NCBI GenBank assembly: GCA_030390025.1
Contig: CM059453.1
Coordinates: forward strand, 6,820,001-6,884,000
Length of the DNA stretch: 64,000 nucleotides
Direction: 5' to 3'
Source: Squalus acanthias
Lineage: Eukaryota
The notes beneath the pieces were generated by a model. The model was not told where the DNA came from, ran no database searches, and saw only the letters and a list, made by a program, of their open reading frames with translations. This document shows, piece after piece, positions 3,335 through 62,336 of this stretch (position 1 is its first letter; the number at the start of each line of letters is the position of its first letter). A program made the position numbers and the translations under genes.

Positions 3335-3649
3335 GTAAGTGTTATGTGAACTTATTTAATTAATAAAGGGACATTAATGGTCGGTCTCAAATGTTGTTTG
3401 GTACCGCTCTTCTGAACGTTCGCGGCACTATCTAAATCGGTCGGCTAAGTGATGAGGAGGGGACAATACTCTTGGCGCGCCGGTACTCGGGCCAGCGGAA
3501 CTCCTAGGTTTCCTTTTCGAGGCAGAAGGAGCTGAATAGGACAATTAGAATGGTGGAGGTGATGGAATAAAGCGGGTTATTCTGGAATATTAAGCGCAGT
3601 CTCACCCGGTTCAGTAGCTCCACATCTAACGCACTACTTTCTGTTACAG

Positions 3650-3817
3650 AGACAAGACAAATATAGAAACACTGGTGTGAGAGGGGCTCCATCAAACCAG
3701 TCAGCTCAAAGTGAAGAGGTCCTGTATGCAGCTGTCAGTGTTTCAAACGTTCGACAGCAGGAGCGATATCTCCAGCACGAGGATTCCAGTGAATAAGCCG
3801 CAATTAAAAGCAAATGA
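3650..3817 (+). pseudogene. Gene C terminal cytoplasmic exon (ITIM VLYAAV; distal Tyr codon replaced by TAA)
   Basis: gttacag|RQDKYRNTGVRGAPSNQSAQSEEVLYAAVSVSNVRQQERYLQHEDSSE*AAIKSK*. 168 nt, the same length as the gene A tail exon. Confidence 0.85.
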
Positions 3818-4139
3818 AAATCAGCGGCATTCACCCTATTCTGACAGATGGAACTGGTCAATATCTTCACACAATTGTTTTTTATGATATCGAACAGAAA
3901 CTCACACTCCAGGAAGTGCTGTGATAATGGAGATCACTCAGAGAGTAATAGCTAATATTTTAACATCTCTTTGTGAGACAATTTGATTTACAATCCCAAA
4001 GATTGTCCACTCCAAACATACTTCCGAAACGGTGCAGGAAGGGGGCGTGAATGTTCAATGTAATTTTAAACTTTTTTATCTGCTTTAATAATAAAATAAC
4101 TATTTCCCAGTTCGAACTTTTATTTCATTTCGGAACAAA

Positions 4140-4640
4140 AAGAACAGAAAGACTTGCATTTCTATAGCGCCATTTAGGACGTCACAAAGTGATTTACAGC
4201 CAATGAAGTACTTTTGAAGTGTGGTCAATATTGTAATTTAGGAAACGTGGCAGCGAATTTGCGCACAGCAAGCTCCCAAAAACAGCAATTTGATAATGAC
4301 CAGATCATCTGTTTTTGTCATGTTGATTTATGGATAAATATTGTTGCATGACACCAGGTTTAATTCCCCTGCTTTTCGTCGAAATAGTGGCAATGGGAAT
4401 TTCTTACGTCCATCTGTGAGGGCAGACGGGGCCTTGCTTTAACGTCTCATCCGAAAGTCGGCACCTCTTTCAGTGCAGCACTTCCTCAGTACTGCCACGC
4501 CGACAGTGCAGCGCTCCCTCAGAACTGCCCCTCCCACAGTGCAGCGCTCCCTCAGTACTGCCCCTCCGACAGTGCAGCGCTCCCTCAGTACTGCACTGGA
4601 GTGTCCGCCTAGATTATTGTGATCAAGTTTCTGGAGGGGT
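4140..4640 (-). mobile_element. DeuSINE (SacSINE1-like) with about 3-4 copies of an internal 33-bp unit
   Basis: Deu-domain core plus 3' tail (aagtacttcattggctgtaaa...ggcgctatagaaatgcaagtctttct); mirror of 59300-60395. Confidence 0.85.
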
Positions 4641-5139
4641 CCCCTCCCTATTATGTTGTTAAATAGCCCTGCCGGATACCGTTGACTCTCTCTGTCGATT
4701 GTGGGGTTATATTTGCACACTCTCCCAGCCCAGTGTAATAAACCTTCACCTTCCTGTCAAATTCCATCAGTTTCCTTCACTACAGCAGCTAAACTTTCTA
4801 TTTATTTTGATTCCATCGGTATTCTTCTGAAAGGTTGGAATTATAAAGAGGCGTGTCTGCGATCAACTTCAGCTTCATGATTAGAATATTTTTCGACACG
4901 CTACCTAGACATACGATGGCAAAGAATGTATTTCATTCTCATCCATGACCGCACTGAGTTTGATTCGACTGAGTGGCATTCACCAGCTACAAGCAAGTGC
5001 AGAGATTCCAGCTTTTTTATGTGCAGATTTGTAAAACCAGCATTCACATTCTCAAACTGCCATGTTTGGATTTGAACTCTTTTTCTCTGGATTACTCTCA
5101 GTGCATTCCCTAACGGTTTGTACAGTAAGAAACAAACTT

Positions 5140-5695
5140 TAATTCAGCTCCCCATTCCCACTCTGACCTCTCTGTCCTCCGCCTTCTACATTGTTCCAAT
5201 GATGCTCAATGGAAGCTCGCGGAACAGTATCTCATCTTTCGATTAGGCAGTTTACAGCCTTCCGGACTCAACATTGTGTTCCACAATTTGATTTCATAAC
5301 CTCTGCTCAGCATTTTTTTCGGACGGAAGCTGATGCTCGTGATTCTGCTATTCCCATTTACACCTCCTCTAAATCCATCTTTTGTTTATTTACTTGCTCC
5401 ATTACCACCTCCTTTCGCCTCGCACCATCATGCTTTTTGTCATAAAATCTCGCCTGCCTTCCACCCTTTCACAGGCCTTCCCTTTTGTTCTATCCTCCCC
5501 TCCCCCTTTCCCTGCATCTACACTTGCTTAAAACCTGTTACATCTCAAAAGTTTTCCAGTTCTGACGAAAGCTCAGCGAACTGAAACGTTAACACTGTTG
5601 CTCTCTCCACGGATGCTGCATGAGCTGCTGAGTATTTCCATCATTTTTTGTTTTAATTTCAGATTTCCAGCCTCCGCAGTAATTTGCTTTTGTAT
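5140..5695 (+). mobile_element. Penelope-like element 3' remnant
   Basis: Degenerate GIY-YIG C-terminus (HCSNDAQWKLAEQYLIFRLG) followed by tctgacgaa...tgaaacgttaac...gctgctgagtatttcca; mirrored at 58235-58790. Confidence 0.65.
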
Positions 5696-6689
5696 TTATT
5701 TTACAATAATATATTTGCCGTCAAATTGTAACAGATTCCAATGTCCCAGTCACATTTAAAAAGCAGGTTGATTGCGATAAAATAACTCTGTGTTCAAACG
5801 GCAAGCAGATAATATGCATGAAGTGAAGCAAAGTGTCACCTTGGAAAATCGCCACCCTTTACTATAATTCAACCTAATACACACAGGATGAATTGCTAAT
5901 GTGAACAGGCATTCCAACAGGAACTTTACAAGCTTCACTACGTTTTCCAGTTAAGATTCCACTCAGCTGACTGAAGCTTCCTGAGCTTTCTCTGCAAAGT
6001 GTTTGAAATGGCCTTTGAAGCTGTTCCTTCCATCGTCAGGATGTGCGCAAAGCGAACAGATCACAGCACACGCCATCTAACGGACAAAGGAAGCAAGTGC
6101 ATCGCATCAAGCAGAGCACATCCTCCAGCCACATCTGCTTCGGTCAACGCACCTGTAAATACTTAAACAGTCTATGTTGGGGAGGGTGAGGTAAACTAGC
6201 AGTTTGTCTGCGCAAGATGCCGGATTTCTGCCCCTGTTGGACTCAGATATGTCTGATGATACAGTGACAAGTCGCCTTTGTAATTCTGTCGGCCTACCGC
6301 TGTGTGGCGCTGTTGGCTTGCGAAGCCTACATTCACACAGAGCATGGAACAAGCAAGAGCACGGGCAGCGGGAGGAATCAGAGCAATTACATAAAACTGC
6401 AATTTATATTGCGATTGTAGATTGTCCAACAGTCTGAAAACCCAAGGACCAATTGAGCAAATAGTCTGTCCACAGTCTAGCTCAACTGGGCTAGGCACTT
6501 AAAGGTCAGTCAGGGTTCCCGCTCCTGTTAAAAATGCCGCCGACACTCGCTTTGAGTCTTGTAAGCTAAGATCTGATTATTTGAGAACTACCGGCGGGAA
6601 TAACATTTCAACAAGAAACAAGATGTTCAGAAGGGGGCATAATTGGAAAATTGGCCGTGGGAAAAATGCAGGGACATTTTTAAAATAAC

Positions 6690-7170
6690 TCTCAGCGTGG
6701 GGCGTCGCTGGCACAGCCGGCATTTATTGCCCATCCCGAGTTTCCCTTGAGAAGGGGGTGCTGAGACGCCTTCTTGAACAGGTGCAAGATTTATGTTTAT
6801 TCATTCACCGGATGTGGGCGTCGCTGTCAAGTCCAGAATTTATTGCCTATCCCTAATTGTCCTTAACTGTGTAGCTTGCTCGGCCATTTCAGAGGGCAGT
6901 TAAGAGTTAACCAGATTGCTGTGGTTCGGGAGTCACATGTAGGCCAGACCGTGTAAGAACGGCAGATTTCCTTCCCTAAAGGGCATTAGTGAACCAATAG
7001 GTTTTTTCCGAAAATCTGGCAGTGTCATGGTCAGCATTACTGATACTAGCTTTCTATTCCAGATTTATTTAATTAACTGAATTGAAATTCCCCCAGCTGC
7101 CGCGGCGGATTTGAACTCATGTCTCCGGATCATTAGTCCAGGCCTCTGGTTTACTACTCCAGTAACACAA
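6690..7170 (-). mobile_element. Shark-type SINE with duplicated LINE-like 3' tail
   Basis: Tail gggcaataaatgc...ccagcgacgcccac present twice; same family as 34010-34410; mirrored at 56760-57240. Confidence 0.7.
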
Positions 7171-7699
7171 CAACTGTGTGGACCTGCAAATTGCCCAACA
7201 ATGTTTACGAATCACCCTTAGAGTGAAAGCGCTTTAATAATCCGGTTGGCTCTCCTGTTTAATAGTCTGTTAATACATTGCATAATATGGTTAGAATCAG
7301 CTCAGAGTGATTCAATAATAGGCAATAGTCAACGCTTGAATCTTATTGTGTTCACAGGCCGCCGCATGGGTCTGCACTGCACCGATTGGTCCAAAACTTC
7401 CATCAGTGTACAGCGTGTTTAACATGTCTAATCCGATGAGAAGGCTGTGAAGTCTCCGTCAGAGTTCCCTTACATTGTATCTATCGGTTGGACACTCGGA
7501 AATGTAGCATCTTTGAGACCGGAGTGCACGGTTTCCCGTTCCTCCCCGTTCCTTCGTTCGCGGACGCTTCCTCCTTATGTAATAAATCAGCTTTAGGTTA
7601 CCCGGGTGACAGTAAAGTTGCATCGCAAAATTGCTCTCAATGGCTTTAACCGATGCAGTTGAGCAATGCGGTTCCGAATGTAACCAAGTCGCTCATAGA

Positions 7700-8074
7700 A
7701 ACCTAGAATGAAACATAGAGAAATAGGAGCGGAAGTAGGCGATTCGGCCCTTCGAGCCTGCTCCGCCAATTAATATGATCATGGCTGATCCTTTATCTCA
7801 ATACCATATTCCCGCTCTCCCCCCATACCCCTTGTCCTCTTTTGCGTCTGGAAATATATCTATCTCCTTCTTCAATATATTCAGTTACTTGGCCTCGACA
7901 GCCTTCTGTGGTAGAGAATTCCACATGTTTATTACACTCTGAGTGAAGAAATTTCCCCTCATCTCAGTCCTAAATTTCCTCTCCGTATCCTGAGACTGTG
8001 ACACCTCGGTCTAGAGCCCCCAGCCAGGGAAACCTCCTCCCTGCATCCAGTCTATCTAGCGCTGTCAGAATTTT
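7700..8074 (-). mobile_element. CR1 3' fragment, present only in the left arm
   Basis: CR1 3' UTR and hairpin (aggcgattcggcccttcgagcctgctcc). The right arm has the empty site near 55515-55525. Confidence 0.8.
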
Positions 8075-8479
8075 ATCTTGGCTGAGGGAACCCAAATGGA
8101 CTCGGAGCCCTGGGTTAGAGAGGGGCTTTTCTTCCATAGTATTTATCGCTGTTCAGTGAATCCTGCTGCAAGTAGCCTTTTCGATATCCAGTGAGGACAG
8201 GAGCAGACTCCGAGGTATTGGGCAGCGGGAGAAACATCATGGTGAAGCAATGCATCTGCAAAAGAGCAGCTTAAGCGAGAGATTGGAGAAATCGAACTCC
8301 AGCAAGCGTTCAAGTTGGAAGTGGAGAATATTGGGGCACATACTGCAAGCAAGAACAACGAGCGTTTGCAATGTCTTTATTGTAAAATCTTGTCGTATCT
8401 CTTCGTTGTTATAATTGGTTCATTTAGAGAATGAAACTTTGAGATTCAGAGAAGCGTCCTCTCTAAGTTCTGGTCCTTT

Positions 8480-8641
8480 TCAGGTAAATGTAATAGCTGC
8501 ATATTCGCTCGTCTCTTTGCTATGTACATATCCGTGCCCTTGAGGAATAGTTGAACAGTTCAGAGTGGCGAAAGTAAGTTTATCCTTCTGCTCAGTTGAG
8601 TTGGATATCAATTCCCAGCCGTCACTGTCTGGATGATCCCG
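8480..8641 (-). pseudogene. Extra terminal cytoplasmic exon, left copy (ITIM Tyr to Phe; acceptor AG to AA)
   Basis: RDHPDSDGWELISNSTEQKDKLTFATLNCSTIPQGHGYVHSKETSEYAAITFT*, homologous to the other tail exons. An upstream donor remnant (aag|gtaaga) lies at ~8953. Confidence 0.75.
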
Positions 8642-8679
8642 TTGCAACAGAAAGAACAGGTGCAGCATATAAAAGAGGA

Positions 8680-8858
8680 AACGTGGTACTGATACAGAAT
8701 TAACACGTGGTACAGGTAGACAAAGAACAGTGGTACAGATACACAAAGAACACGTGGTACAGGTACACCAAGGACACGTGGTACAGATACAGAAATAACA
8801 CGGGGTACAGGTAGACAAAGAACACGTGGTACAGATGCACAAAGAACACGTGGTACAA
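8680..8858. repeat. 24-bp minisatellite (~7 units), most units containing CACGTG
   Basis: Unit approx acacgtggtacagatacacaaaga; mirrored and longer at 54587-54910. Confidence 0.9.
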
Positions 8859-9659
8859 CGATAACAAAAACGTTTTCTGCTTTGATTTAAACAGAATCAG
8901 TGTTGGGAAACAAAACATACGGGGATAGAGAGACTCACTCTGGTCTCTCTTACCTTTGCATTCTGTGTGTTTGCGATATGTACATATAGTTATTATTGCG
9001 AGTTCGGATGAATGTGCAGTATCTGGCTACGACCAGTAGGTGGCGCGGTGGGTCCACGTATTTAATCACGTGACACACTGTCAGTACACGGGATATCGAA
9101 TGCTATTTACAACTAACTGACTGTTCTTGTCAGTTCCCAATGTATCCTTCCGTTTCAGAACACGTTGGAGTAGGATTTTTCTTGGACGGAAGCGCAAAAC
9201 CGAACGGCCGCCTCTCATACGCCCCACTTACTATTTAATTCCCTGCGATGCGATAAAGCCAGTTTTATGCTACCGCCTGCGATTAATTTCTACTCTGTCT
9301 AGCGCACGGTTATAGGACTTTCAATTGTTCTCTTGGATCCAGTGGACGTTGTTAACTCAAGCGCACTGGCTGCCAGTGGGGTCCGTACTCACAATTGTTC
9401 CTGATCCTGGATTTTCCCAGCCAAGATTCGGGCCCGGTGACCAGGTGGGAAAGGGTCACTCGACAGTGATCAGGAATTGGATCACTGGCTGTTTCATTCC
9501 ATTCAACGTCGATGTCATTCATAGTGCGGCGGCTGCCTACCTGACACAGACCTGCAATTGAAGCATGGTAGCAGTTTATACCTGGCGCAGACTTCACCCT
9601 CAGACCGCATGTGTTAGCTCTGATATAAACCAGCGATGCAATTAGGATATAATTAACCC

Positions 9660-11250
9660 GAACCCCTCGATTACATTCCAATCTGTAACTCACTCCCTGA
9701 GTATCCGTTATTCTATATATTAATCCCCCGACTCACCGATAAGATTCCAGCCTGTAACTCACTCCCGGGTATCTGTTATTCTACATATAAAACCCACGAA
9801 GAGCTCGATTAGATTCCTGCCTGTAACTCACTCCCAGGTATCTGTTATTCTATATATAAATCCCCTAACCCCTCGATTAGATTCCAGCCTGTAATTTACT
9901 CCCGGGTATCTGTTATTCTATATATAAACCCGCGAACCCCTCGATTAGACTACAGCCTGTAACTCACTCCCAGGTATCTGTTATTCTTTATATAAAACCC
10001 GAAACCCTCGATTAGATTCCGGCCAGTAACTCACTCCCGGGTATCTGTTATTCTATATATAAACCCCCCGAACTCCTCGATTAGAGACCAGCCTGTAACT
10101 CACTCCCGGGTATCTGTTATTCTATATATTATGCCCCCGAACCTCTAGATTAGATTCCAGCATGTAACTCACTCCCGGGATGCTGTTATTCTATATATAA
10201 ACCCGCCGAACTACTCGATTAGATTCCAGCCTGTAACTCACTCCCGGGTATCTGTTATTCTGAAAATCAACACCTCGAACCCCACGATTAGATTCCAGCA
10301 TGTAACTCACTCCCGGGATTCTGTTATTCGATATATAAACCCCCCGAAGTCCTCGATTGGATTCCAGCCTGTAGCTCACTCCCGAATATCTGTTCTTCTA
10401 TATATAAACCCCCTGAACCCCTCGATTAGATTCCCGCCTGTAACTCACTCAGCGAGTATCCTTTATTCTATATATAAACCCCCTGAACCCCTCGATTAGA
10501 TTCCAGCCTGTAACTCGCTCCCGGGTATCTGTTATTCTATATATCAACCCCCCGAAACCCTCGATTAGATTCCAGCCTGTAACTCACACCCGGGTATCTG
10601 TTATTTTATATATAAAACCACGGAACCCCTCGATTAGGCTCCAGTGTGTAATTCACTCTTGGGTATCTGTTATCTTATATATAAACCCCCCGAACCCCTC
10701 GATTAGATTCCAGCCTGTAACTCACTCCCGTGTATATATTGCTAATTTATAAACCTCCCTAACCTCTCGACTAGATTCCAGCCTGTAACGCACTACCGGG
10801 TATCTGTTATTCTGTATATAACCCTCCCCCGAACACCTCGATTAGATTCCAGCCTGTAACTCACTCCCAATATCTGTTATTCTATATATAAACCCCGACT
10901 CCTCGATTAGAATCCAGCCTGTAACTAACCCCCGGGTTTCTGTTATTCTATATATAAACTACCCGAACTCCTCGATTAGATTCCAGTCTGTAACTCATTC
11001 CCCACTGTCGGTTATTCACTATATGAACCCTCCCCCGAACCCATGATTGGATTCCAGCCTGTCAGCCACTTCCGGCTATCCGTTATTCTTTCTACAAACC
11101 ACACTGAAATCCCTCGATTATATTTCGGCCTGTAATTCACTTCCTGTTATCTGTTATTCTATATATAACACCCCGTAACACTCCATTAGATTCCAGCTTG
11201 TAACTCACTCCCAGGTATCTGTTATTCTACACATAAAACACCCAAAACAA
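9660..11250. repeat. ~69-bp minisatellite (~23 units)
   Basis: Unit cccctcgattagattccagcctgtaactcactcccgggtatctgttattctatatataaaccccccgaa, head-to-tail with no spacers. Confidence 0.95.
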
Positions 11251-11849
11251 TATATCAGAATCCAATCGCGAAGTCATTGTTCGATATGTGATAATGTACA
11301 CATAAGCCATTCGAATCTCTTCGTTAGATTTCAGCATATGACCTATATTTAGTTGTGCTTTTCCCTATTTATAAACAGTGCAAACTGCTAGATTGGATCC
11401 ATTAGCCAATACTTTTGGCTGGTAAGCGGTCTGTCTTCAAATCTTTTCGATTTCACTGGGAATACAAATTGGAGATAATCTTCAGGAACCATTGCTGATG
11501 CCAATGTACACATCACACGGTGCATCTCTTGTCTCAGTTACGTTGACAACAATCGCAGTTCAACAGCTCTCCTGCAGAAGTTTGACGTTTAAATATTTTC
11601 ACGCCTTTGTAGCCACGCTCTGAATTACTGTCAGTTTAACGATGAATTAAAGATGACCCATTTTGATATTTGTCCCATTCCCTATTCATGGCATTGCTCA
11701 AACTCTCCATTTCAAACTCTTATAGCTATCAGCATAAAGAGATCCCATCGCATTTTGTGATTTAGTTTTCAATTGGTGAAGGTAGGCGATGTAAAAAATG
11801 GTTATCTCACTTTGCACTCTCGGTGTCCTTTAGCCACAATATTGTATAT

Positions 11850-12570
11850 TGGACCGGATTTTGTAGTTGGTGTCGCGGGGTTTGTTACGCTGCAATTCCT
11901 CCTTTGAAATCCACCGCAAGTTCGGGATTTCTGCATGCGCTTTCTGGATCTTGCGGTCTGTCAGCGTACGTGTTGACAGGCCAGCCGCGCGGACCAATAG
12001 AAAGCAATTGATAGCCACAAATTGCATACGGAAATTTTACGATTGATGCGAACAAGCGAAGTGTATGATTGCATCTGCGTATGGGGATTTTTCAGGCATG
12101 ATTGAAACATTTTAACATCGTAAATTCTCCACGTACACTGTATAAAATGAGTTTCCGCAAATATTGGCCCAGATTAGAGTTTTAAATATGTTGAAAATTA
12201 TGATGAAAACATTTTATATTTAGTGTGGTTGGTGGAATTAAGCTAATTACGGTCTAAATTCCAATTCTGTAAATTGAAATTAGATTAGATTTCGGGATTC
12301 TGTTACATCTCATTACCGGATTCCCCTCGGAAATGATTAAAATCGAATTCTGCTTTGTGATTGGACGACCAGGCCCACGTGACCCCGGGTACACTTCCGC
12401 ACCGCCTGCGTCCCTGGGATCTTAAAGCCCTTTCACTGCCCTCCGCCTCGCATCGTCAGACAGCAACTTTTCGCAACCTCACCGCCATCAGGTATGTGCC
12501 TAATTCTTTCACCGGTCGGAGGCGTATTCTGGAGGTACACCACCAACACAATTTTTTCCCTATTAGACCC
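11850..12570. mobile_element. Degenerate non-autonomous TIR element (same style as 14832-15592)
   Basis: GC-rich ends, AT-rich centre and the family's attgg...ggcccacgtgaccccgg motif; termini degraded. Confidence 0.45.
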
Positions 12571-13145
12571 AGTCTTTTCCTGAATTAAGATTATTAATAA
12601 TAATCGACAATATTCGCATTAGTTTATTGCTGGCTCTGCATTTCCAACATGCAGCAGTCCAGGGATTCATGAAAAGTCAAAATGAAAATCGATGAGCTCA
12701 ACGTTTCATTCAAGGGACACAGACGGAATTATTCTCTTTAGTTCAGCGAGTTTTGTTTACATTATAAGAAATGGAAAATGTGCAGCCTTTAAAATATATT
12801 GTTTGACCATGTACAAGTAAAGGAGTGATTTTAAATGGCGCAGTGTGATGGTTGTGCATGAATAATTTACTAGCCTCAGATTAATATTGTGTGATAATAA
12901 CAAACGAATGTTAAACACATACACAACTACAAATGGCAATCTGAGAATCGCTGCAAGGGAGAAACTAGTGTTGAGATGTCACTGTGTCAGAATACCGTTG
13001 GAATTCTAAACAGCACATTGAAAATACATCGTTGTAGATTATTCACATGAGCTCGGCCGTTGTAATTTGAATGTCCATTAATATTAAACAAATTAATACG
13101 TAATCCAAAGCTCCACTTTTGTGCCGGCGTGTAATTGATGATATA

Positions 13146-13337
13146 NNNNNNNNNNNNNNNNNNNNNNNNNNNNNNNNNNNNNNNNNNNNNNNNNNNNNNN
13201 NNNNNNNNNNNNNNNNNNNNNNNNNNNNNNNNNNNNNNNNNNNNNNNNNNNNNNNNNNNNNNNNNNNNNNNNNNNNNNNNNNNNNNNNNNNNNNNNNNNN
13301 NNNNNNNNNNNNNNNNNNNNNNNNNNNNNNNNNNNNN
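13146..13337. other. Assembly gap (192 N)
   Basis: Run of N. Confidence 1.
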
Positions 13338-13392
13338 GGAGACTATCCCCGCCTGTTACGTGGGAGACCGCGGTTCAATTCCCCGATGGAGG
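13338..13392 (+). tRNA. Partial degenerate tRNA-Asp-derived sequence (pseudogene), 5' end hidden in the gap
   Basis: tatccccgcctgttacgtgggagaccgcggttcaattccccga matches the vertebrate tRNA-Asp(GTC) 3' two-thirds. Anticodon reads GTT, changes are CpG-type, and a T-run follows at ~13399. Confidence 0.75.
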
Positions 13393-13449
13393 GCACGATT
13401 TTTCCGACATGGAGTCGCTGGCCGATTGGCCTCCTTCTCTGCCGTTATG

Positions 13450-13508
13450 ACTATCTATCTTATATCTGTCTATCTAACTATCTATCTATCGATCTATTTA
13501 TCTATCTC
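13450..13508. repeat. (TATC)n microsatellite, imperfect
   Basis: Direct inspection. Confidence 0.85.
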
Positions 13509-14831: not shown

Positions 14832-15592
14832 GGGCCAGAATTTACGGTGTCTTTGACGGCAGACACTCAGCCTATGCCATCCTAATTCTTCAATTTGGAC
14901 CCCGCAAATTCCGGATCTACAAATGTGTTGCGCATGCACGCAAACGCAGAACTTGTGATCTGTCGAGGTACGCCTCGACAGATTTTAAAAACCGACAGAT
15001 AAGTCACATTCGCTGGCGCACATTTGAGCTATTTGCCCAACTACTGCCCAGCATTTGCCAACGAAACACTGATGTTTGGTAAACGCAGGTATAGGTCCTG
15101 CTTTCACTTACGTAACGGTTAAAATAAATCTTAATTTAAAAATGTAAAAATCAAAAAATGATGCACAGAGACTTAAAATTCGTTTATGCAAATATTGGCC
15201 TGGCTGAAAATGTTTAAAAATATTTTTCAAAAAAATATTTATTTTTGTTGTTTGGTTTAATTGAGGGAATTTCAATAAAAGAACATTTAAATTTATTAGA
15301 GTTGTCTGAATTTTATAAGTATTTGTGGATTCCGTTGCATATCATTAGCGGATTTCCTTCGTAAATGATTGCAATGGAATCCGCCATTCTCATTGGAGGA
15401 CCCGGCCTGCGCGATCCCACGGACGCTACTGGACTGTTTGCGTCCCTGGGATCCAGAAGCCATTAGCAGGCGTACGCCGGAGGCCCAGGATCTGAACTCT
15501 CCGTAGCTGTGGAGCCAATGGGTAAGTTCAGAAATGTTTCGCAGGTGAGAGGTGTACCCCGGAAGTACGCCTCCGACCACAAATTCAGGGCC
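14832..15592. mobile_element. Non-autonomous TIR DNA transposon (PIF/Harbinger-like MITE) with AAT target-site duplication
   Basis: aat|gggccagaattt ... aaattcagggcc|aat; no coding capacity; AT-rich core. Confidence 0.7.
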
Positions 15593-50069: not shown

Positions 50070-50217
50070 AGGGAGGATCACGTGAGCCCCGCGATGGATG
50101 CAACCAGCTCAGAATGAAGAGATTGTGTACGTGACTGTCAATGTCTCACACACCCGCAATCATGAACCATTTAGCCCAAATGAGAAGACGAGCGATTATG
50201 CACAAATTAAACAGAAG
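50070..50217 (+). pseudogene. Gene B exon 8; a 17-nt deletion shifts IVYVTV and SDYAQI out of frame
   Basis: Spliced frame reads REDHVSPAMDATSSE* (TGA 50115-50117); the ancestral frame QPAQNEEIVYVTV...TSDYAQIKQK is still visible. Confidence 0.85.
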
Positions 50218-52029: not shown

Positions 52030-52940
52030 GTTTTGGGTGGTTTATATGCAGAATAGCGGATACCCGGAAGTGAGTTACAGGCTGGAATCTAATCCAGGGG
52101 TTCGGGGGGTTTATATATAGATTAACTGATACTTGGGAGTGAGTTAAAGGCTGGAATCTAATCGAGGGGTTCGGGGGGTTTATATGTAGATTAACTGATA
52201 CCCGGGAATGAGTTACAGGCTGTAATCTAATCGAGGGGTTCGGGGGTTTTATATGTAGAATAACAGATACCCGAGAGTGAGTTACAGGCTGCAATCTAAT
52301 CGAGGGGTTCGTGGGGTTAATATATAGGATAACAGATACCGAGGAGTGAGTTACAGGCTGGAATCGAATCGAGGGGTTCGGGCTGTTTATATATAGAATA
52401 ACAGGTAGCCAGGAGTGAATTACAGTCTGGAATCTAATCGAACGGATCGAGGGTTTATATGTGGAATACAATATACCTGGGAGGGAGTTTTAGGCTGGAG
52501 TCTAATGGAGGTGTTCGGAGTGGTTTATATATAGAATAACAGATACCCGGGAGTGAGTTACAGTTTGGAGTCTAATCGAGGTGTTCGGGTGGTTTATATA
52601 TAGAATAACAGATACCCGGGAGTGAGTTACAGGCTGGAATCTAATCGAGGGGTTCGGGTGGTTTATATATAGAATAACAGATACCGGGGAGATTGTTACA
52701 GGCTGGATTCTAATCGAGGGTTTTGGGGGTTTTATATATAGAATAACAGATACCTGGGAGTGAGTTACAGGCTGGAATCTAATCGAGGGGTTCGGAGGGT
52801 TTAAAAAAAAGAATAACAGATACCCGAGAGTGAGTTACAGGCTGGAATCTATTCGAAGGGGTTCGGGGGTTTTATATGTAGAATAACAGATACCCGGGAT
52901 TGAGTTACAGGCTGCAATCAAATCGAGGCGTTCGTGGGGT
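52030..52940. repeat. ~69-bp minisatellite, inverted copy (~13 units)
   Basis: Reverse complement of the 9660-11250 unit. Confidence 0.95.
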
Positions 52941-52945
52941 TAATT

Positions 52946-53704
52946 GCCCGAAAATTAAACCTAATACGCGAGAGTACGCACTGTGTAGTCTCGCGTATTC
53001 GATCCCGAATTGCCGGTTTCCTGCATGCACTGCGCATGCGCGGGAAACCGGCACTTCGTGAATTGAAAAGGGGGCGGTTCCTAAGTGAACCGCGTGCGCG
53101 CTACAGGCTGTGCGCACGCAGTGCACTTAGTTTTTTTTCAGCTTTGAACGCGCAGGTTAGTGGTGAAGATTTTACACACAAAGAAAGCAGGCGTAGGAGC
53201 CCCTTTTAACAAGGTAAGTAGTTAATTAAGTGTTATTTTAAATTTTTTTCAAAAGGTTTATCTTTTTTAGAGAGTTTAAAGAAAGGTAAGTTTATCTTTA
53301 TAACTTTTAAAAAGATTTAAAATTTTTTCCAAAATTTATTTTTTTGTTTAAAGTGGTTAATTTATTTAACTATATCTATTTTATTAATGTGATGGCTTTT
53401 TTAAATTTAATTGAGGTTTAGCTGTTCTTTTGGGGTGTGTAACATTCATAGCTTTGACAGCTCTTGCCGTCAAAACTATGAATGAAAGATGGTGTGCTGC
53501 CATTGGCTCTAACTGAATCACGTGATCCCAGAGCTTGCACGAACTAATTGTGTCTCTGGGTCACGCAAGCACTGCACGGTTCCAACAGAGAGAGCCTTTG
53601 TAACTAAAGTTCGTGAGGGCCAGGAGCTAAAAGGAAGGCGCGGAGTGCGATGCCGCGGGGAATACTTACCCCCGCGGGAACCATCCATGTTTAATTTCTG
53701 GGCC
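52946..53704. mobile_element. Non-autonomous TIR element (Harbinger-like MITE)
   Basis: gcccgaaaatt ... aatttctgggcc; close relative of 55898-56614. Confidence 0.65.
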
Positions 53705-53714
53705 AATAAATGCA

Positions 53715-54456
53715 GGGGCAGAAATTCGTCAGTTGTCGGTTGAGTACACACTGTGTACTCACCCGTGGACTGAACAAAAGCGCCGGTTTCTTGCATGCAC
53801 TGCGCATGCGCGGGAAACCAACACTTCCGTTCCCCTGAGGAAAGGGGTTCAGAGGTCGAACGGCCACGCCAGCGTGCCAGCGCGTTCGCCTCGCACTTGG
53901 GGTTTTTTGCAGGTTCCTCCGTGAAGGTAAGCGTGGAGAAGATACACTTTGAAAAAGGATGCGCAAGGCCTTCTTTTAACAAGGTAAGTGCTGATTTTAT
54001 TAAAATTTCAACATTTTTTTCACAGATGTGTATATTTTAATTACTTTAAAGAAAGGTAAGTTTAGTTTTATCACCGTTAAAAAACGTAATTAATTTTTTC
54101 AAACATTTAAATTTTTGTTTAAAATAGTTAATGAATGTAATTTATAGTTATTTTAAAAATGTGATGTTTTAAAAAAAAATATTTGTAGTGTTAGGGATGT
54201 TTTGGGGCCGATCTGTATTCCTAGATTTGAATGAAAGAGGGTCTGCTGCCATTGGCTCTCCATGGCCTACGTGATCCCAGGGGATACATCGCACTAACTA
54301 TGCCCCTGGGATACACAAGCGCTGCGCACCAGCAGTTCGGGGATGGCCCAGGTGCCGAAGTCCCTGTGGGCCCAGAGGTCAACGGCAGGCACTGTAGGTA
54401 GGTGCGCGCGCGATCCTTGCACCCGCGGGAAGCCAGGGAGCCGAATTTCTGGCCTC
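53715..54456. mobile_element. Adjacent non-autonomous TIR element of the same family
   Basis: ggggcagaaattc ... gaatttctggcctc; shares tgcatgcactgcgcatgcgcgggaaacc with its neighbour. Confidence 0.65.
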
Positions 54457-54586
54457 AATTTACATGTCGCTAACACAAAGAATGTAAAGGTAAGAGAGAC
54501 AAGTGTGAGTCTCTCTATCCCCCTATTTTGTGTTTCCCAACAGTGATTCTGTTAAAATCGATGCAGAAAACCTTATTGGTATCGCT

Positions 54587-54910
54587 GTAACACGTGTTCT
54601 ATGTGTATCTGTACCACGTGTTCTTTGTCTATCTGTACCACGTGTTCTTTATGGATCTGTACCACGTGTCCTTGGTGTACCTGTATCCCGTGTTCTTTGT
54701 GTATCTGTACCACGTGTTCTTATTGCATCCGTACCACGTGTCCTTGGTGTACCTGTACCACGCGTTATTTGTGTATCTGTACCACGTGTTCATTGTTTAT
54801 CTTTTCCACGTGTTCTTACTGGATCGGTACCACGTGTTCTTGTTGTATCTGTACCAAGTTTTCTTTGTCTAACTGTACCCCGTTTTATTTCTGTATCTCT
54901 ACCACGTGTC
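54587..54910. repeat. 24-bp minisatellite (~13 units), most units containing CACGTG
   Basis: Unit gtaccacgtgttctttgtgtatct. Confidence 0.9.
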
Positions 54911-54946
54911 CTCTTTTATACGCTGCACGTGCTGTTTCTGTTGCAG

Positions 54947-55108
54947 AGGGATCATCCAGACAGTGACGGCTGGGAAGTGATATCCAACTCAACTTAGCAG
55001 AAGGAAGAAATTACTTACGCCACTGTGATCTTTTCAAGTATTCCTCAAGGGCACGGATATGTACATAGCAAGGAGATGAGCGAATATGCAGCTTTTAAAT
55101 TTGCCTGA
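54947..55108 (+). pseudogene. Extra terminal cytoplasmic exon, right copy (TAG at 54995-54997 upstream of ITYATV and SEYAAF)
   Basis: ttgcag|RDHPDSDGWEVISNST*QKEEITYATVIFSSIPQGHGYVHSKEMSEYAAFKFA*; donor remnant aag|gtaaga at ~54489. Confidence 0.78.
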
Positions 55109-55897
55109 AAATGACCAGAACTTAGAGAGGACGCTTCTCTGAATCTCAAAGTTTCTTTGTCCAAATGAACCAATTATAACAAAGAAGAGATACGACACGT
55201 TTTTGCAATCAAGACATTGGAAACACTCGTTGTTCTTGCTTGCAGTATTTGCCCCAATATTCTCCACTGCCAACTTCAACGCTTGCTGAAATTCGATTTC
55301 TCCAATCTCTCGCTTCAGCTGTTATTTTTGCAGATACCTCCCTTCACCATGAGGTTTGTCCCGAGACCCAATACCCCGGTGTCTGCTCCTGTCCTCATTG
55401 GATATCGAAAAGGCAACTTGCTTCAGGGTTCACCGAACAGCGATAAAGACTCGGGATGAATTGCCCCTCTCCAACCCGGGACTCCGAGTGCATTTGGATT
55501 CCCTCAGCCGAGATTGATCAATGTGCGAATTGATTACTTTCGGAGCTGCATTGCACAAGTGCATCGGTAAAAGCAACGCATTGCCACCCCCCCCCGGGTA
55601 ACCTAAAGCTGATTTATTACCTAAGGAGGAAGCGTCCGCGGACGAAGGAATGGGGAGGAACGGGAAACCGTGCATTCTGATCTCCATAATGCTACATTTC
55701 CGATTGTCCCACCGATAGATAGAGTTTAAAGGAAATCTGACGGACACTTCAAAGTCTTCTCATCTGATTAGACATGTTAAACAAGCTGTACAATGATTGA
55801 AGGCTTGGTACAATCGGTGCAGTGCAGACCCATGTTGCGGCCTGTGAACACAATAAAATTCAAGCTACTTTCTTTGTGTTGACTATTGCCTGTTATT

Positions 55898-56614
55898 GGG
55901 CCAAAAATTCATCCCGCGACGCGAGAGTACGCACTGCGTACTCTCGCGTATTCCCACTGCAGGGCATGCAGAAAACCGGCAATTGGTCTTTTGAAAAGGG
56001 GGCGGTTCCTCGGTGCATCGCGTGCGCGCTACAGGCTGCGCGCACGCTGTGCACTTCATGCTTTGGACGCGCAGGTAAGTACTGAAGATTTTAGAAATGG
56101 AAAAAGGAGGAGTAAGACCCACTTTTAACAAGGTAAGTTGTGAATTAAGTATTTTTTTGAATTTTTTTTAACAGGTATATCTTTTTTCGAGACTTTAAAG
56201 ACAGGTAAGTTTATTTTTATAACTTTTTAAAAGATTTAAAAAAAATTCAAAAATTTAATTTTTTATTTAAAATGTTTAATTTATTTAACTATACTTATTT
56301 TATTAATGTGATGGTTTTTTTTTAATTTAGTTGAGGTTTAGATGTTATTTTGGGGGGGTGTAAGATTCATAGATTTCACAGCACGTATGTGAAACTTATG
56401 AATGGAAGATGGTGTGCTGCCATTGGCTCTAACTGAGTCACGTGATCCCACAGCTCGCACGAATTCACTACGCCGGTGGGATACGCAAGCACTGCCCAGC
56501 TGATGTCTCGTACATCAAGTTCGTGCGAGCTGCATCTGAAAAAGCACAAGCGGAGTGAGAGAACGCGGGGAAGCCTTAACCCAGCGGGAACAGAGCGAGA
56601 TCAATGTCTGGGCC
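55898..56614. mobile_element. Harbinger-like MITE with ATT target-site duplication, right arm only
   Basis: att|gggccaaaaattc ... tgtctgggcc|att; the left arm has the empty site with a single triplet at ~7315. Confidence 0.75.
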
Positions 56615-56759
56615 ATTGAATCACTCTCAGCTGCTTTCAAACATATTATGCAATGTATTAATAGACTATTAAACAGGAGAGCCAACCGGATTATTAAAGC
56701 GCTTTCACTGTAAGGTTGGTTAGTATATATTTGTTTGTCAATTTGCAGGGCCACATTAT

Positions 56760-57240
56760 GGTTATGTTACTGGTGTAGTAAACCAGAGGCCTGGATTAAT
56801 GATCCAGAGACATGTTTTCAACTCCCACCACGGATGCTGGGGGAATTTAAATTGAGTTAAACAAATGAACCTGGAATAAAAAGTTAGTATCAGTAATGCT
56901 GACCAGGAAAGTACAGGATTGTCGTAAAAACCCAACTGGTTCACCAATGATTTTTAGGGAAAGAAATCTGACGTCCTTACCCGGTCTGGCCGACATGTGA
57001 CACCAGAACCACAGCAATGTGTTTAACTCTTAACTGCACTCTGAAATGGCGGAGCGAGTCACTCAGTGATTGGTCAATTAGGGATAGGCAATAAATGCTG
57101 GCCTTGACAGCGACGCCCACATCCCGTGAATCAATAAAAACAATATATTGCATCTGTTCAAGAAGGCGGCTAAGCACCACCTTCTCAAGGGAAACTAGGG
57201 ATGGGCAATAAATGCCGGCTTTGCCAGCGACGCCCACAGC
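56760..57240 (+). mobile_element. Shark-type SINE (mirror of 6690-7170)
   Basis: Reverse-complement match. Confidence 0.7.
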
Positions 57241-58234
57241 CGAGAGCTATTTAAAAAATGTCCCTGCATTTTTCAACGGCCAATTTTCCAATTATGCCCC
57301 CCTTCTGAACATCTTATTTCTTGTTGAAATGTGATTCCCGCCGGCAGCTCTCAAATGATCAGATCTTAGCTTGCAAGCCTCAAAGCGAGTGTCGGCGGGA
57401 TTTTTAACAGGAGCGGGAGCCCTGACTGACCTTTAAGTGCCTAGCCCAGTTGAGCTAGACAGCGGACAGACTAATTGCTGTATTGGTTCTTGGTTTTTCA
57501 GAATGTTGGACAATCTACAATTGCAATTTAAATTGCAGTTTATTATAATTTCTCTGGTTCCTCCTGCAGCCCGAGGTTTTGCTTGTTCCATGTTCTGTGT
57601 GAATGAAGGCTTCGCAATCCAATAGCGCCACACAGTGGCAGGCCAACAGCATTACATAAGCGATCTGTCACTGTATCATCAGACACATCTGAGTCCAACA
57701 GGGGCAGAAATCCCGCATCTTGCGCAGACAAACTGCTAGTTTACCTCACCCAACCCAACATAGACTGTTTAAGTATGTACCGGTGCGTTGACCGAAGCAG
57801 ATGCGGCTGGAGAATGTGCTCTGCTTGATGCGATGCACTTGCTTCCTTTGTCCGTTAGATGGCGTGCGCTGTGATCTGGTCGCTTTGTGCACAACCTCTC
57901 CAAGCGCAAAAGACCATTTGAAACAATTTGCCGAGCAAGCACAGGAAGCTTCAGTTAGCTGAAGGGAATCTTAACCAGGAAACGCACTAATTCTTGTAAA
58001 GGTCCTGTCGGAATGCCTGTTCCGTTCAGCAATACCTCCTGGGTGTATTATGTTGAATTAAGGCTAAGTTTGGCGATTTACCAAAGTGACTGTTTGCTTC
58101 ACTTCATGCATATTATCTGTTTGCAGTTTGAACACAGAGTCATTTTCTGGCAATCAACCTGCTTTTTAAATGTCACTGGGACATTGGAATCTGTTACACT
58201 GTGACGGCAAATAAATTATTGTAAAAAAAAATAC

Positions 58235-58790
58235 AAAAGCAAATTATTGTGGAGGCTGGAAATCTGAAATTAAAACAAAAAATGTTGGAAATACTCAGCA
58301 GCTCAGGCAGCTTCCGTGGAGCGAGAAACAGAGTTAGCGTTTCAGGTCGATGTGCTTTCGTCAGATCTGGAAAACCTTTGAGATGTAACAGGTATAAGCA
58401 AGTGCAGATGCAGGGAAAGGGGGAGGGGAGGAAAGAACAAAAGGGAAGGTCTGTGAAAGGGTGGAAGGCAGGTGAGATTTTATGACAAAAAGCATGATGG
58501 TGCGGGGCGAAAGGAGGTGATAATGGAGCAAGTAAATAAACAGAAGATGGATTTAGAGGAGGTGTAAATGGGAATAGCAGAATCACCAGCAACAGCTTCC
58601 GTCCGAAAAAAATGCGGGCAGAGGTAATGAACTGAAAAGTGGAACTCAATGTTGAGTCCGGAGGACTGTAAAGTGCCGAATCGAAAGATGAGGTTCTGTT
58701 CCTCGAGCTTCCATTGAGCTTCATTGGAACATTGTAGGAGGCGGAGGAAAGAAAGATCAGAGTGGGAATGGGGAGCTGAATTAAAATTTG
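58235..58790 (-). mobile_element. Penelope-like 3' remnant (mirror of 5140-5695)
   Basis: QCSNEAQWKLEEQNLIFRFG-like motif on the minus strand. Confidence 0.65.
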
Positions 58791-59299
58791 CTTCTTACTG
58801 TACAAACCGGTAGGGAATGTAGTGAGAGTAATCCAGAGAACAAGAGTTCAAATCCAAATATGGCAGTTTGAGAATGTGAATGCAGGTTTTACAAATCTGC
58901 ACGTAAATAAGCTGGAATCTCAGAGAGTGACCTTGTAGCTGGTAAATGCCACTCAGTTGAATCAAGCTCAGCGCAGTTTCAAATGAGCATGAAATACATT
59001 GTTTGACATGGTATGTCTAGGTAGCGTGTCGAAAAAATATTCTAAGCATGAAGCTCAAGTTGAATTAATCGCAGACCCGCCTCTTTATAATTCCATCCTT
59101 TCAGAAGGATAACGATGGAATCAGAATAACTATTTCTGAATTTTTAGCTGCTGTAATGAAGGAAACTGGTGGAAGTTGACAGAAAGGTGAAGATTTATTA
59201 CACTGGGCTGGGATAGTTTGCACATCTAACTCCACAACCGACAGAGAGACCCAACGGTATCCGGCAGGAATATTTAAAAACATAATAGGGAGGGGTCCC

Positions 59300-60395
59300 C
59301 TCCAGAGACTTGAGCACAAAAATCTAGGCTGACACTCCAGTGCAGTACTGAGGGCGCGCTGCACTGTCAGAGGGGCAGTACTGAGGGAGCGCTGCACTGT
59401 CAGAGGGGCAGTACTGAGGGAGCGCCGCACTGTCGGAGGGGCAGTACTGAGGGAGCGCTGCACTGTCGGAGGGGCAGTACTGAGGGAGCGCCGCACTGTC
59501 GGAGCGGCAGTACTGAGGGAGCGCTGCACTGTCGGAGGGGCAGTACTGAGGGAGCGCTGCACTGTCGGAATGGCAGTACTGAGGGAGCACTGCACTTTTG
59601 GAGGGGCAGTTCTGAGGGAGTGCTGCACTGTCGGAGGGGCAGTACTGAGGGAGTGCCGCACTGTCGGAGGGACAGTACTGAGGGAGCGCCGCACCGTCGG
59701 AGGGGCAGTACTCAGGGAGCGCTGCACTATCGGAGGGTTTGTACTGAGTAGGTGTCGCACTGTCGGAGGGGCAGCAATGAGGGAGCGCTGCACTTTCGGG
59801 GGGGCAGTTCTGAGGGATTGCTGCACTGTCGGAGGGGCAGTACTGAGGAAGCGCTGCATTGTCGGAGGGGCAGTGCTAGGGGAAGCACTACTCTGTCGGA
59901 GGGGCAGTAATGAGGGAGTGCTGCACTGTCTGAGGGGCTGTACTGAGGGAGCGCCTCACTGTCGGAGGGGCAGAATTGAGGGAGCACTGCACTGTCGGAG
60001 GGGCAGTACTGAGGGAGCTCTGCACGGTGATAAGGGCAGTGCTGAGGGAGCGCCGCACTGTTGGAGGTGCCGTGTTTCATAGGAGCCGTTAAACCAAGGC
60101 CCCGTCTGCTCTCTCAGGTGGACGTAAATGATCCCATGGCCACTATTTCGAAGAAGAGCAGGGGGAGTTCTCCCCGGTGTCCTGGGCCCAATATTTATCC
60201 CTCAGTCAACATAACAGAAACAGATGATCTGGTCATTATCACATTGGTGGTGTTGGGAGCTTGTTGTGCGCATATTGGCTGCGACATTTCTTACATTACA
60301 ACAGTGACCACACTTCAAAAGTACTTAATTGGCTGTAAAGAACTTTGGGATGTCCTGAAAGGCGCTATAGAAATGCAAGCCTTTCTGTTCTTTTT
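59300..60395 (+). mobile_element. DeuSINE (SacSINE1-like) with expanded internal VNTR
   Basis: SINE body and tail flank the 33-bp array. Confidence 0.85.
59340..60065. repeat. 33-bp minisatellite (~22 units) derived from the SINE Deu-domain start
   Basis: Unit gcagtactgagggagcgctgcactgtcggaggg. Confidence 0.95.
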
Positions 60396-60715
60396 GCTCG
60401 GAAAGAAAAGCAAATTTCGAATTAGGGAAATAGTTATTTTATTATTAAAGCAGATAAAAAAGTTTAAAATTACATTGACCGTTCCCGCTCCCTTCCTGCA
60501 CCGTTTCGGAAGTATGATTGGAGTGGACAATCTTTGGGATTGTAAATCAAACTGTCTCAGGAAGAGATTTTAAAATGTTAGCTATTACTCTCGGAATGAT
60601 ATCCATTATCACAGTACCTCCTGGAGTGCGAGGTTCCGTTCTAACTTGTAAAAAACAGTTTTCTTAAGATATTGACCAGTTCCATCTGTCAGAATAGGGT
60701 GAATGCCGCTGATTT

Positions 60716-62336
60716 TCAATTGCATTTAATTGCTGCGTATTCACAGGACTCCTCATTCTGGAGATATCTCTCCTGCTTTCGAACCTTTCAAACACTGACA
60801 GCTGCATACAGGACCTCTTCACTTTGAGCTGACTCGTTTGATGGAGCCCCTCTCACACCAGTTTTTCCATACTTGTCTTGTCTCTGTAAACGAAAGCAGT
60901 GCGTTAGATGTGGAGATACTGAACCGGGTGAGAGTGTGGTTGCTGTACCAGAATAACCCGCTTTATTCCATCACTGCCACCATTCTAATTTTCCTCTTCA
61001 GCTCCTTCTGCCTCGAAAAGGAAACCGTGGGCTTCCCCTGGCCCCGAGAACCGCCGCGCCGATAGTATTCCCCCCTCCTCAACACTTACCCGACTGCTGG
61101 GGGGCAGTTCCCGCTGTGTCCCCCTGGGCCAGCTTGATTTTAGTTCTCCGCTCCACTCCCACTCTGACCTCTCTGACCTCGGCCTCTTACACTGTTCCAA
61201 TGAAACTCAACGGAAACTCGAGGAACGGCACCTCCTCATCCGATTTGGCATTTATCCGCCTTGCAGGCTCTACATTGAGTTCAACAATTTCCGATCGTCA
61301 CCACTGCCCCATTGTTTCGGACGGTAGTTGTTGGTAATGTTTCTGCCGTTGCCATTTACACCTCCTCTAGACCCAATTTAGATTGCTTTACTTGCCCAAT
61401 ACCATCTCCTTTTGCCTTGCACCATCATCTCTTTTGTCATTTAATATCTCCTGCCTTCCACCCTATCACAGAACTTCCCTTTTGTCCTATCCTCCTTTCC
61501 CTGCATCTGCACTTGCTTAAAATCTGTTACTTCTCGAATCGTTTCCAGTTCTGACGAAAAGTCATCCACCTGAAACGTTAACTCTGTTTCTCTCTCCACA
61601 GACGCTGCCTGAACTGCTGACTATTTCCAGCATTTTCTGTTTTTATTATAGCCAATGATTGCAGTCGGGTTCGGGTGGGAGTCGGGGCTGGATATTGAAT
61701 TAAGACCCCGGATTTAAAATTTGTCCGGTCTTGGTCATGCCAGCCTATTGCTCACCCAGGCCCCTCGCACGGAATGTTGCCGCCTCGCGGTAAAATAGAG
61801 CCATAAAATCCAGGGAGGACAATGTTAATAATCCCAGCAAAAATACCATGCTATTTGACCCTCTCAAAGCCCTCATACTGCGTGATCTTGTTGATTATTT
61901 AAACCACCGGAGGTAATGTGGTGTGAGAGGGGAGAGTAAACATTATTCTGTTTAATACATGTAGTGACACGGTCAATCGGTTTTCTCAGACACACTTTGA
62001 ATTCAATAGAAATCCACTACAGAGAAAATGCATGATGCATTTATCTGGACATGACCAGCGCATCCTTTTCTGTTAGTCGTGTGAGGTGCTCATTGTATCC
62101 CTTATAAACTCCGTCAAACAGGTGTCCAGAACACGTGTTGACCCGTTGAACTGCACGGTTAATGTGTCTCACTCTGGTTACAAACAGTGCCAATATCAGG
62201 CAGGGGTAACTCCATCGGATGCTGGGCCGTTGCCATGCCCACACTTACCTCGGTGTTAAACGGGGTCTACGCCACAAATTTACTCACCGAATCGTTGTTG
62301 GTAAGGGGGACACCAGTGGTAGCTCTTGTCTTCTTC
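60716..62336 (-). pseudogene. Siglec/MAG-like gene D, 3' end (two cytoplasmic exons; remainder presumably beyond the window)
   Basis: Exon 62249-62336 (88 nt): KKTRATTGVPLTNNDSVSKFVA*TPFNTE|gtaagt. Exon 60716-60883: RQDKYGKTGVRGAPSNESAQSEEVLYAAVSV*KVRKQERYLQNEESCEYAAIKCN*. Confidence 0.85.
61130..61650 (+). mobile_element. Penelope-like 3' remnant in the last intron of gene D
   Basis: LGLLHCSNETQRKLEERHLLIRFG motif plus tctgacgaa..tgaaacgttaactctg end. Confidence 0.7.

What the first reader, a model, noticed from the sequence alone, without database searches (positions are those of the whole stretch)
3440..61094. ~58-kb inverted duplication organises the receptor cluster (C> <A  B> <D)
Seen: arms of ~25.5 kb and ~20.4 kb surround an ~11.7-kb spacer, each carrying a whole gene, an extra tail module and the last exon of a convergent neighbour. 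Divergence and arm-specific TE insertions show this is an old real duplication, not a duplicated contig. Known: the mammalian CD33-related Siglec cluster is thought to have been shaped by a large inverse duplication. Inference: convergent cluster architecture in a distant lineage.
Basis: partly seen in the sequence, partly recalled or inferred. Interest (0 to 1): 0.7.

Follow-up and report, generated by a model that had tools for sequence, protein, structure and literature searches.

The report
Duplicated-then-inverted shark Siglec-like pseudogene cluster
This stretch of DNA, likely from a shark, holds two mirror-image copies of a block of Siglec-like immune-receptor genes, every visible copy damaged, and it most likely arose by an ordinary tandem duplication followed by an inversion that split one gene, so it shows routine turnover of an immune gene cluster rather than a new architecture.

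Summary
The inverted repeat is real: arms 3440-28934 and 40686-61094, 15,025 aligned columns, 86.8% identity. The reading needs three corrections. (1) No gene is whole: A, B, C, D and a missed fifth fragment E in the spacer all carry frameshifts, stops or deletions, none shared between arms. (2) The outer 'breakpoints' are probably not duplication ends. C and D belong to one shark receptor class (II), A and B to another (I); 3440 looks like a deletion inside C, and 61094 runs on into D. (3) E is a class II 5' half in the same orientation as C, and shares with it a LINE diverged as much as the arm flanks (K 0.113). One tandem duplication plus one inversion that split a gene into E and D explains all this with two copies. 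Divergence has two levels (20% centre, 11% flanks), suggesting later conversion. The convergent class II/class I pair predates the event. The proteins are MAG/Siglec-like; 0 of 10 named class I relatives has the sialic-acid arginine. Parallel with the mammalian CD33 cluster is loose. Interest low to modest.

The parts
3440..28934 (.). Left arm of the inverted repeat (contains tail of C, extra tail remnant, gene A)
40686..61094 (.). Right arm (gene B, extra tail remnant, last exon of D)
11251..22278 (.). High-divergence centre of the arms (left coordinates): 20.2% mismatch against 11.2% outside; covers TM, both tail exons and 3' flank of A/B
   Evidence: 2dLL 145.8; best of 20 block shuffles 33.2
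17127..28257 (-). Gene A, class I Siglec-like, 8 exons (signal, V, three C-type Ig, TM, two tail exons); 1-nt deletion in V near 27446, TAG 24723-24725; no F-strand Arg
41363..50217 (+). Gene B, class I; 1-nt deletion near 45211 plus TGA 45222-45224 in Ig3, 17-nt deletion in last exon, repeat inserted at the stop; V exon open and carries the F-strand Arg (YQLRIEI at 42344)
1975..3817 (+). Gene C, class II: Ig2 exon 1975-2279 and Ig3 exon 3088-3334 (both frameshifted), last exon 3650-3817 (TAA 3794-3796); Ig4, TM and first tail exon absent
3335..3440 (+). Left outer junction, 105 bp after C's Ig3 donor: inferred deletion inside C
60716..63413 (-). Gene D, class II, visible 3' part: last exon 60716-60883 (TGA 60788-60790), first tail exon 62249-62336 (TAG 62267-62269), part of TM-tail intron 62937-63413
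37930..39141 (+). Fragment E: promoter-side homology, 43-nt signal exon at 38593, internal deletion, 3' two-thirds of a class II V exon to 38917, start of intron
   Evidence: (class II clade 100/100)
39083..40318 (-). LINE fragment in E's V-Ig2 intron; 39821-40318 matches 1-499 in the same orientation
   Evidence: K 0.113
1..850 (-). LINE fragment upstream of C's Ig2 exon; runs on past 499 where E's copy stops
40321..40685 (-). 365-bp retroelement 3' fragment sitting at the E|B junction, the inferred inversion breakpoint
28935..29109 (-). A's upstream flank beyond the arm; still aligns to E's upstream, so likely native
8480..8985 (-). Extra tail remnant, left (last exon 8480-8641, acceptor AG changed to AA, ITIM Tyr to Phe)
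54458..55105 (+). Extra tail remnant, right (in-frame TAG ending at 54997)
13146..13337 (.). Assembly gap of 192 N inside the left arm

Best explanation
The window holds two copies, in opposite orientation, of a block of damaged Siglec-like receptor genes, which likely arose when a convergent class II/class I gene pair was duplicated in tandem and most of the second copy was then likely inverted from a break in the class II gene's V-Ig2 intron, leaving its 5' half (E) behind and its 3' half (D) flipped. Shown: homology, orientation, class of each piece, lesions, two divergence levels. Inferred: order of events; E and D being halves of one gene; 3440 being a later deletion in C; the 365-bp retroelement fragment at 40321-40685 marking the break (joined during repair, or by recombination between repeat copies); the 20%-diverged centre reflecting later exchange with a more distant class I paralogue or haplotype. 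Intact relatives in other sharks likely work as ITIM-bearing inhibitory surface receptors; these copies likely make no full-length receptor.
For: C's Ig2 exon groups with class II (100/99) and C and D tails group with class II (99/100), A and B with class I; A and B are sisters in V (100/97), Ig2 (91/91), Ig3 (97/95) and Ig4 (97/99) trees. E's V groups with class II (100/100). LINE 1-499 and 39821-40318 lie in the same intron position and orientation, 52 mismatches in 496 columns, equal to the arm flanks (Fisher p 0.71) and unlike the centre (p 7e-7); the 3 other copies of that stretch in the window are 57-64% identical. A's flank past 28935 still aligns to E's upstream (score 11, 0 of 2000 shuffles reach it); B's does not (1883 of 2000). 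D's tail continues into its own first tail exon and intron. No Ig4, TM or first tail exon of C is found in the spacer (tblastn with 7 shark proteins). Lesions differ between copies, so decay followed duplication.
Against: Every decisive prediction lies outside the window. The flank test interval was chosen after seeing the local alignment; two intervals fixed without it were not significant (193 of 300 and 103 of 300 shuffles), and 4 of 2985 random real windows also reached the score (at least one a self-overlap). The LINE pair could be two independent insertions of a young subfamily. Class II placement of E rests on unnamed database proteins and a long branch. The model does not itself explain the diverged centre. 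A 192-N gap separates C and the outer left arm from A. D could still give a shortened tail with one ITIM through an earlier in-frame donor at 62288, and B could skip its broken phase-symmetric Ig3 exon, so 'pseudogene' is likely, not proven.
Confidence: 0.58

Rival explanations
1. A single inverted duplication, larger than the window, copied the whole II><I unit (C and D both complete originally); E is a third, separately duplicated class II 5' half, and deletions trimmed C and B's upstream.
For: Anti-diagonal; C and D tails are sisters at about 90% DNA identity; outer and inner flanks have similar K, 0.127 and 0.114.
Against: Needs a second, direct duplication of the same age to give E and its LINE, and a deletion exactly at B's upstream end.
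Confidence: 0.2
2. A and B are older paralogues (K about 0.23) already inverted, and long gene-conversion tracts later homogenised the promoter-to-Ig4 region and the outer flank, as in primate SIGLEC11/SIGLEC16.
For: Two divergence levels (chi2 142.8, 13 df; change-point); centre divergence is symmetric between A and B in non-coding pieces (23 vs 22, 29 vs 24 unique changes); head-to-head genes 13.1 kb apart, like the 9-kb SIGLEC11/16 pair (PMC5701461 passages).
Against: Three separate stretches (outer, inner, LINE pair) share one age, which would need near-simultaneous conversions; no activating partner is seen.
Confidence: 0.12
3. The duplication is real but the inversion is an assembly mis-join at the 365-bp repeat, or the arms are two haplotypes placed side by side.
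For: The E|B junction is a repeat fragment; the assembly has a sized gap inside the left arm.
Against: 11-20% divergence with many arm-specific inserts is far above what alleles usually show (general knowledge); the junction repeat is short and its nearest window relatives are 58-69% identical; both inner junctions lie in gap-free sequence.
Confidence: 0.1

Closest known systems
Shark Siglec/MAG-like receptors annotated in NCBI/UniRef (Pristiophorus, Heptranchias, Heterodontus, Carcharodon, Cetorhinus, Mustelus, Scyliorhinus; P0001-P0014)
   Same: Same domains and tail motifs; best matches 50-76% identical per domain; two classes, both on one equally long contig in Heptranchias, Carcharodon and Cetorhinus.
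   Different: Those are predicted open reading frames; all copies here are damaged. Their gene order and orientation could not be seen.
Myelin-associated glycoprotein (Siglec-4) and sialoadhesin (Siglec-1)
   Same: Best solved relatives: MAG 100 bits to the family profile, sialoadhesin E 3.8e-11 to B's V exon; V-domain cysteines and B's Arg align.
   Different: Four or fewer Ig domains, multigene cluster, two ITIM-like motifs, Arg absent in 10 of 10 named class I relatives.
Mammalian CD33-related Siglec cluster (inverse duplication, Cao et al. 2009; title only seen)
   Same: Clustered Siglec-like ITIM receptors in opposite orientations with rapid birth and death.
   Different: That is an ancient event in a paracluster of about 2 Mb; this is a roughly 60-kb-plus lineage-restricted event whose products decayed; CD33 scores below MAG (63 vs 100 bits); orthology not shown.
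Primate SIGLEC11/SIGLEC16 paired receptors
   Same: Head-to-head, about 10 kb apart, similar 5' ectodomain region and more diverged TM/tail.
   Different: A and B both have ITIM-like tails and near-identical TM layout; no activating member; the outer flank is also young.

Membership tests
Siglec | N-terminal V-set domain followed by C-type Ig domains | tested here: met
   Pfam V-set 1.9e-10 and Ig_CD22 6.4e-8 for B's V exon; Ig hits for later exons; PDB sialoadhesin, MAG
Siglec | Siglec cysteine pattern in V domain and second domain | tested here: met
   Three V cysteines align with sialoadhesin and MAG, invariant or nearly so in 16 rows; paired Ig2 cysteines align with MAG
Siglec | Essential F-strand arginine for sialic acid binding | tested here: inconclusive
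   Present in B, absent in A and E; 0 of 10 named class I proteins; 3 of 6 unnamed class II-like proteins with the motif printed
Siglec | Single-pass TM and tyrosine-based tail motifs | tested here: met
   TM exons and ITIM-like motifs in A, B, C, D tails when read through breaks
Siglec | Intact, expressed receptor | tested here: not met
   All five copies carry frameshifts, stops or deletions; expression itself not testable
Siglec | Demonstrated sialic acid binding | not testable with these tools
   Needs glycan-array or cell-binding assay
CD33-related Siglec cluster | Closer kinship to CD33/Siglec-5-14 than to conserved Siglecs | tested here: inconclusive
   Profile scores MAG 100, Siglec-8 68, CD33 63, Siglec-5 55, sialoadhesin 54, CD22 37 bits, on chains of unequal length; no tree with mammalian rows was built
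CD33-related Siglec cluster | Conserved synteny with the mammalian locus | not testable with these tools
   No unrelated flanking gene in the window; no eukaryote genome collection available
Inverted segmental duplication (single event) | Continuous anti-diagonal over unique sequence | tested here: met
Inverted segmental duplication (single event) | One copy bounded by two new junctions, uniform age | tested here: not met
   New junctions are diagonal (3440 left outer, 40686 right inner) and divergence has two levels
Paired receptors (SIGLEC11/16 type) | One inhibitory and one activating member with shared ectodomain | tested here: not met
   Both A and B have ITIM-like tails; TM exons align with the same Arg at the outer edge in both

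The most novel reading that the evidence does not exclude
Sharks carry their own two-class cluster of Siglec-related ITIM receptors, built on a tail-to-tail class II/class I pair older than the split of hexanchiform and galeomorph sharks, in which class I has largely given up the sialic-acid arginine and copies turn over by duplication, inversion and SIGLEC11/16-style conversion with selected V domains: an independent or ancestral counterpart of the mammalian CD33-related cluster, against the view that fish lack such receptors.
Probability: 0.25. Interest if true: 0.58.

Novelty: new member of a known kind. Interest (0 to 1): 0.3.

Why it matters
The rearrangement itself is routine for immune gene clusters and here produced only damaged copies. 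Its value is as a window on an apparently unstudied shark family: 25 relatives examined fall into two classes, with ITIM-like tails and mostly no sialic-acid arginine in class I. One teleost paper states that fish genomes lack inhibitory CD33-related Siglecs (PMC7226832 passages); a clustered, fast-turning ITIM-bearing Siglec-like family in sharks would bear on when such clusters arose. Three searches showed no paper on it in the held library, which lacks most subscription journals.

Tried and rejected
Whole functional genes in the arms: rejected. Duplication endpoint at 3440/61094: rejected as likely, since both sides belong to class II genes. C's missing exons in the spacer: not found. Faster evolution of B as cause of the diverged centre: non-coding pieces are symmetric; only 2 of 9 relative-rate tests reached p<0.05, both in exons. 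A and B tails as non-sisters: not rejected as a clade (p-AU 0.23), unresolved. Microhomology at the E|B junction: ambiguous because the repeat end overlaps it. Low transition/transversion ratio as a feature of the arms: 6 of 6 control repeat pairs show it too. Extra-tail rows were translated in the wrong frame (both; left), so those rows were ignored and the tail tree was rebuilt without them. Single-sequence fold of B's V exon was poor (pLDDT 44) and not used; an alignment-based fold had not finished, so no structure comparison was made. ARAGORN and Rfam found nothing. Accession-level look-up of homologues could not be made. Angata et al. 2004 was not held. Of 150 proteins listed, only the top-scoring named ones and 11 unnamed ones above 270 bits were analysed.
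Full report
Observation. Self-BLAST shows a collinear anti-diagonal from 3440/61094 to 28934/40686. Fourteen hand-picked collinear blocks give 15,025 aligned columns at 86.8% identity, K2P 0.146, 59% of the 25,495-bp left arm and 74% of the 20,409-bp right arm, around an 11,751-bp spacer. The match covers introns and intergenic DNA, three shared minisatellites of unequal copy number and shared repeats, and is interrupted by inserts found in one arm only. A 192-N gap lies at 13146-13337; everything from 13338 to 64000, including A, B and both inner junctions, is gap-free.

What the genes are. A (minus strand, 28257-17127) and B (plus, 41363-50217) each have signal, V, three C-type Ig, TM and two tail exons. 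B's V exon matches Pfam V-set and Ig_CD22 and sialoadhesin and MAG in the PDB. All 14 named homologues returned by three searches are shark proteins; a profile of four of them scores MAG highest among solved structures (100 bits; Siglec-8 68, CD33 63) and finds 125 representatives at E<1e-30. A shark origin is therefore inferred. Domain trees split the family into class I (A, B, most named proteins) and class II (C's Ig2 exon, C and D tails, fragment E's V exon, Heptranchias P0014, Carcharodon P0013, Cetorhinus P0003), with supports of 99-100. In three species both classes report the same longest-contig length, which suggests linkage but shows no order. The F-strand arginine, called essential for sialic acid binding (PMC6288428 passages), is present in B, absent in A and E, absent in 10 of 10 named class I proteins and present in 3 of 6 unnamed class II-like proteins where the motif was printed.

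Every copy is damaged. A: 1-nt deletion in V, TAG at 24723-24725. B: 1-nt deletion and TGA in Ig3, 17-nt deletion in the last exon. C: frameshifts in both Ig exons, no Ig4, TM or first tail exon, TAA in the tail. D: TAG and TGA in the two tail exons. E: deletion from the signal-exon donor into the V exon, nothing after the first intron part. The extra tail remnants have a broken acceptor (left) or a TAG (right). No lesion is shared between arms, so decay followed duplication. Overall dN/dS between A and B is 0.86; in V it is 1.9 (45 of 292 replacement sites against 9.5% in flanking introns, p 0.003; against 7 of 83 silent sites, p 0.15), a weak hint that both V domains were once under diversifying selection. 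D could keep a shortened tail through an earlier donor and B could skip Ig3; single-base deletions could be sequencing errors; expression is untested.

The junctions. At 3440 the left arm starts 105 bp after C's Ig3 donor. Since the tail that follows is class II like C, it is most simply C's own last exon, brought close by a deletion. At 61094 the right arm runs on into D's first tail exon and intron. Neither is then a duplication end, and the duplicated unit likely exceeds the window. At 28935 A's flank still aligns to the upstream region of paralogue E as far as 29109 (0 of 2000 shuffles reach the score; interval chosen after the fact; two preset intervals were not significant), whereas B's flank stops at a 365-bp retroelement fragment. 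On the other side of that fragment is E's intronic LINE, which matches 1-499 in direct orientation at K 0.113, the age of the arm flanks (0.114, 0.127), while 3 other copies of that stretch are 57-64% identical.

Mechanism. A convergent pair II> <I was duplicated in tandem, giving [C> <A][E-D> <B]; the second copy was then inverted from the class II V-Ig2 intron to just upstream of B, giving C> <A, E>, B> <D. This uses two copies of each gene and accounts for the direct LINE pair, for E being only a 5' half, for B's cut upstream and for A's and D's native flanks (confidence 0.58). The order of events, or a single template-switching event with the same junctions, cannot be told. That LINE activity can join distant breaks is reported for human L1 (PMC11702581, abstract and outline seen); applying it here is inference. 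Divergence has two levels: 20.2% in 11251-22278 against 11.2% elsewhere, symmetric in non-coding DNA, which points to later exchange with a more distant paralogue or haplotype, or to conversion of the flanks as in SIGLEC11/16 (PMC5701461 passages). Rivals: one large inverted duplication plus a separate copy of E (0.2); old paralogues with converted flanks (0.12); mis-join or haplotypes (0.1).

Comparison with what is known. The claim about the mammalian cluster rests on Cao et al. 2009, seen only as a title in the reference lists of PMC5702289 and PMC3338513; the paper was not read. The event here is small, lineage-restricted and left damaged copies, and the convergent layout predates it, so it does not 'organise' the cluster in that sense. 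The whale shark genome paper mentions Siglecs once, as a family of jawed-vertebrate origin (PMC8455134 passage). PMC7226832 (passages) says fish lack inhibitory CD33-related Siglecs and does not mention sharks. Nine literature searches listed nothing on this shark family; only listings and abstract openings were seen for the other papers, no supplements were read, and most subscription journals are not held. Repeat-family labels such as CR1-like or Penelope-like are recalled; calls show only endonuclease and reverse-transcriptase matches for the spacer LINE. Synteny, flanks and reads stayed unchecked because no eukaryote genome or read collection was available.

Verdict. Real duplication, reinterpreted mechanism, decayed products: a new member of a known kind, interest 0.3. 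The family behind it deserves a look (novel case 0.25 probable, interest 0.58).

Noticed in passing
window, both arms and six repeat pairs: Transversions outnumber transitions (arms 1230 vs 759; 6 of 6 control repeat pairs likewise) and CpG observed/expected is 0.66: an unusual substitution spectrum for a vertebrate, apparently general to this region.
   Followed up: partly
window 22702-22989 / 46209-46496: Ig4 exon is 95.8% identical between A and B, silent sites included, above its introns (p 3e-6): a possible short recent conversion tract; the Ig2 exon is below its introns (82%, p 7e-4).
   Followed up: partly
window 8480-8985 and 54458-55105: Orphan two-exon tail of a third, more distant paralogue (31-42% to known tails) with no ectodomain exons nearby.
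   Followed up: partly
window 9657-11237 and 52035-52941; 4471-4594 and 59342-60067; 8681-8857 and 54585-54909: 69-bp (23 vs 13 copies), 33-bp (4 vs 22) and 24-bp (7 vs 13.5) minisatellites shared by both arms with different copy numbers.
   Followed up: no
window 13338-13450: tRNA-like fragment (resemblance recalled) abuts the assembly gap; not called by ARAGORN or Rfam.
   Followed up: partly
window 52939-54450, 55892-56621, 12229-16750: Several related AT-centred elements with GC-rich ends, in direct and inverted copies, arm-specific; likely non-autonomous DNA transposons.
   Followed up: no
window 29521-31650: Decayed endonuclease plus reverse-transcriptase non-LTR retrotransposon in the spacer.
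   Followed up: partly
P0003, P0013, P0014: The three named class II proteins lack a complete V domain, whereas unnamed class II-like proteins have one; V loss may recur in class II or reflect annotation.
   Followed up: no
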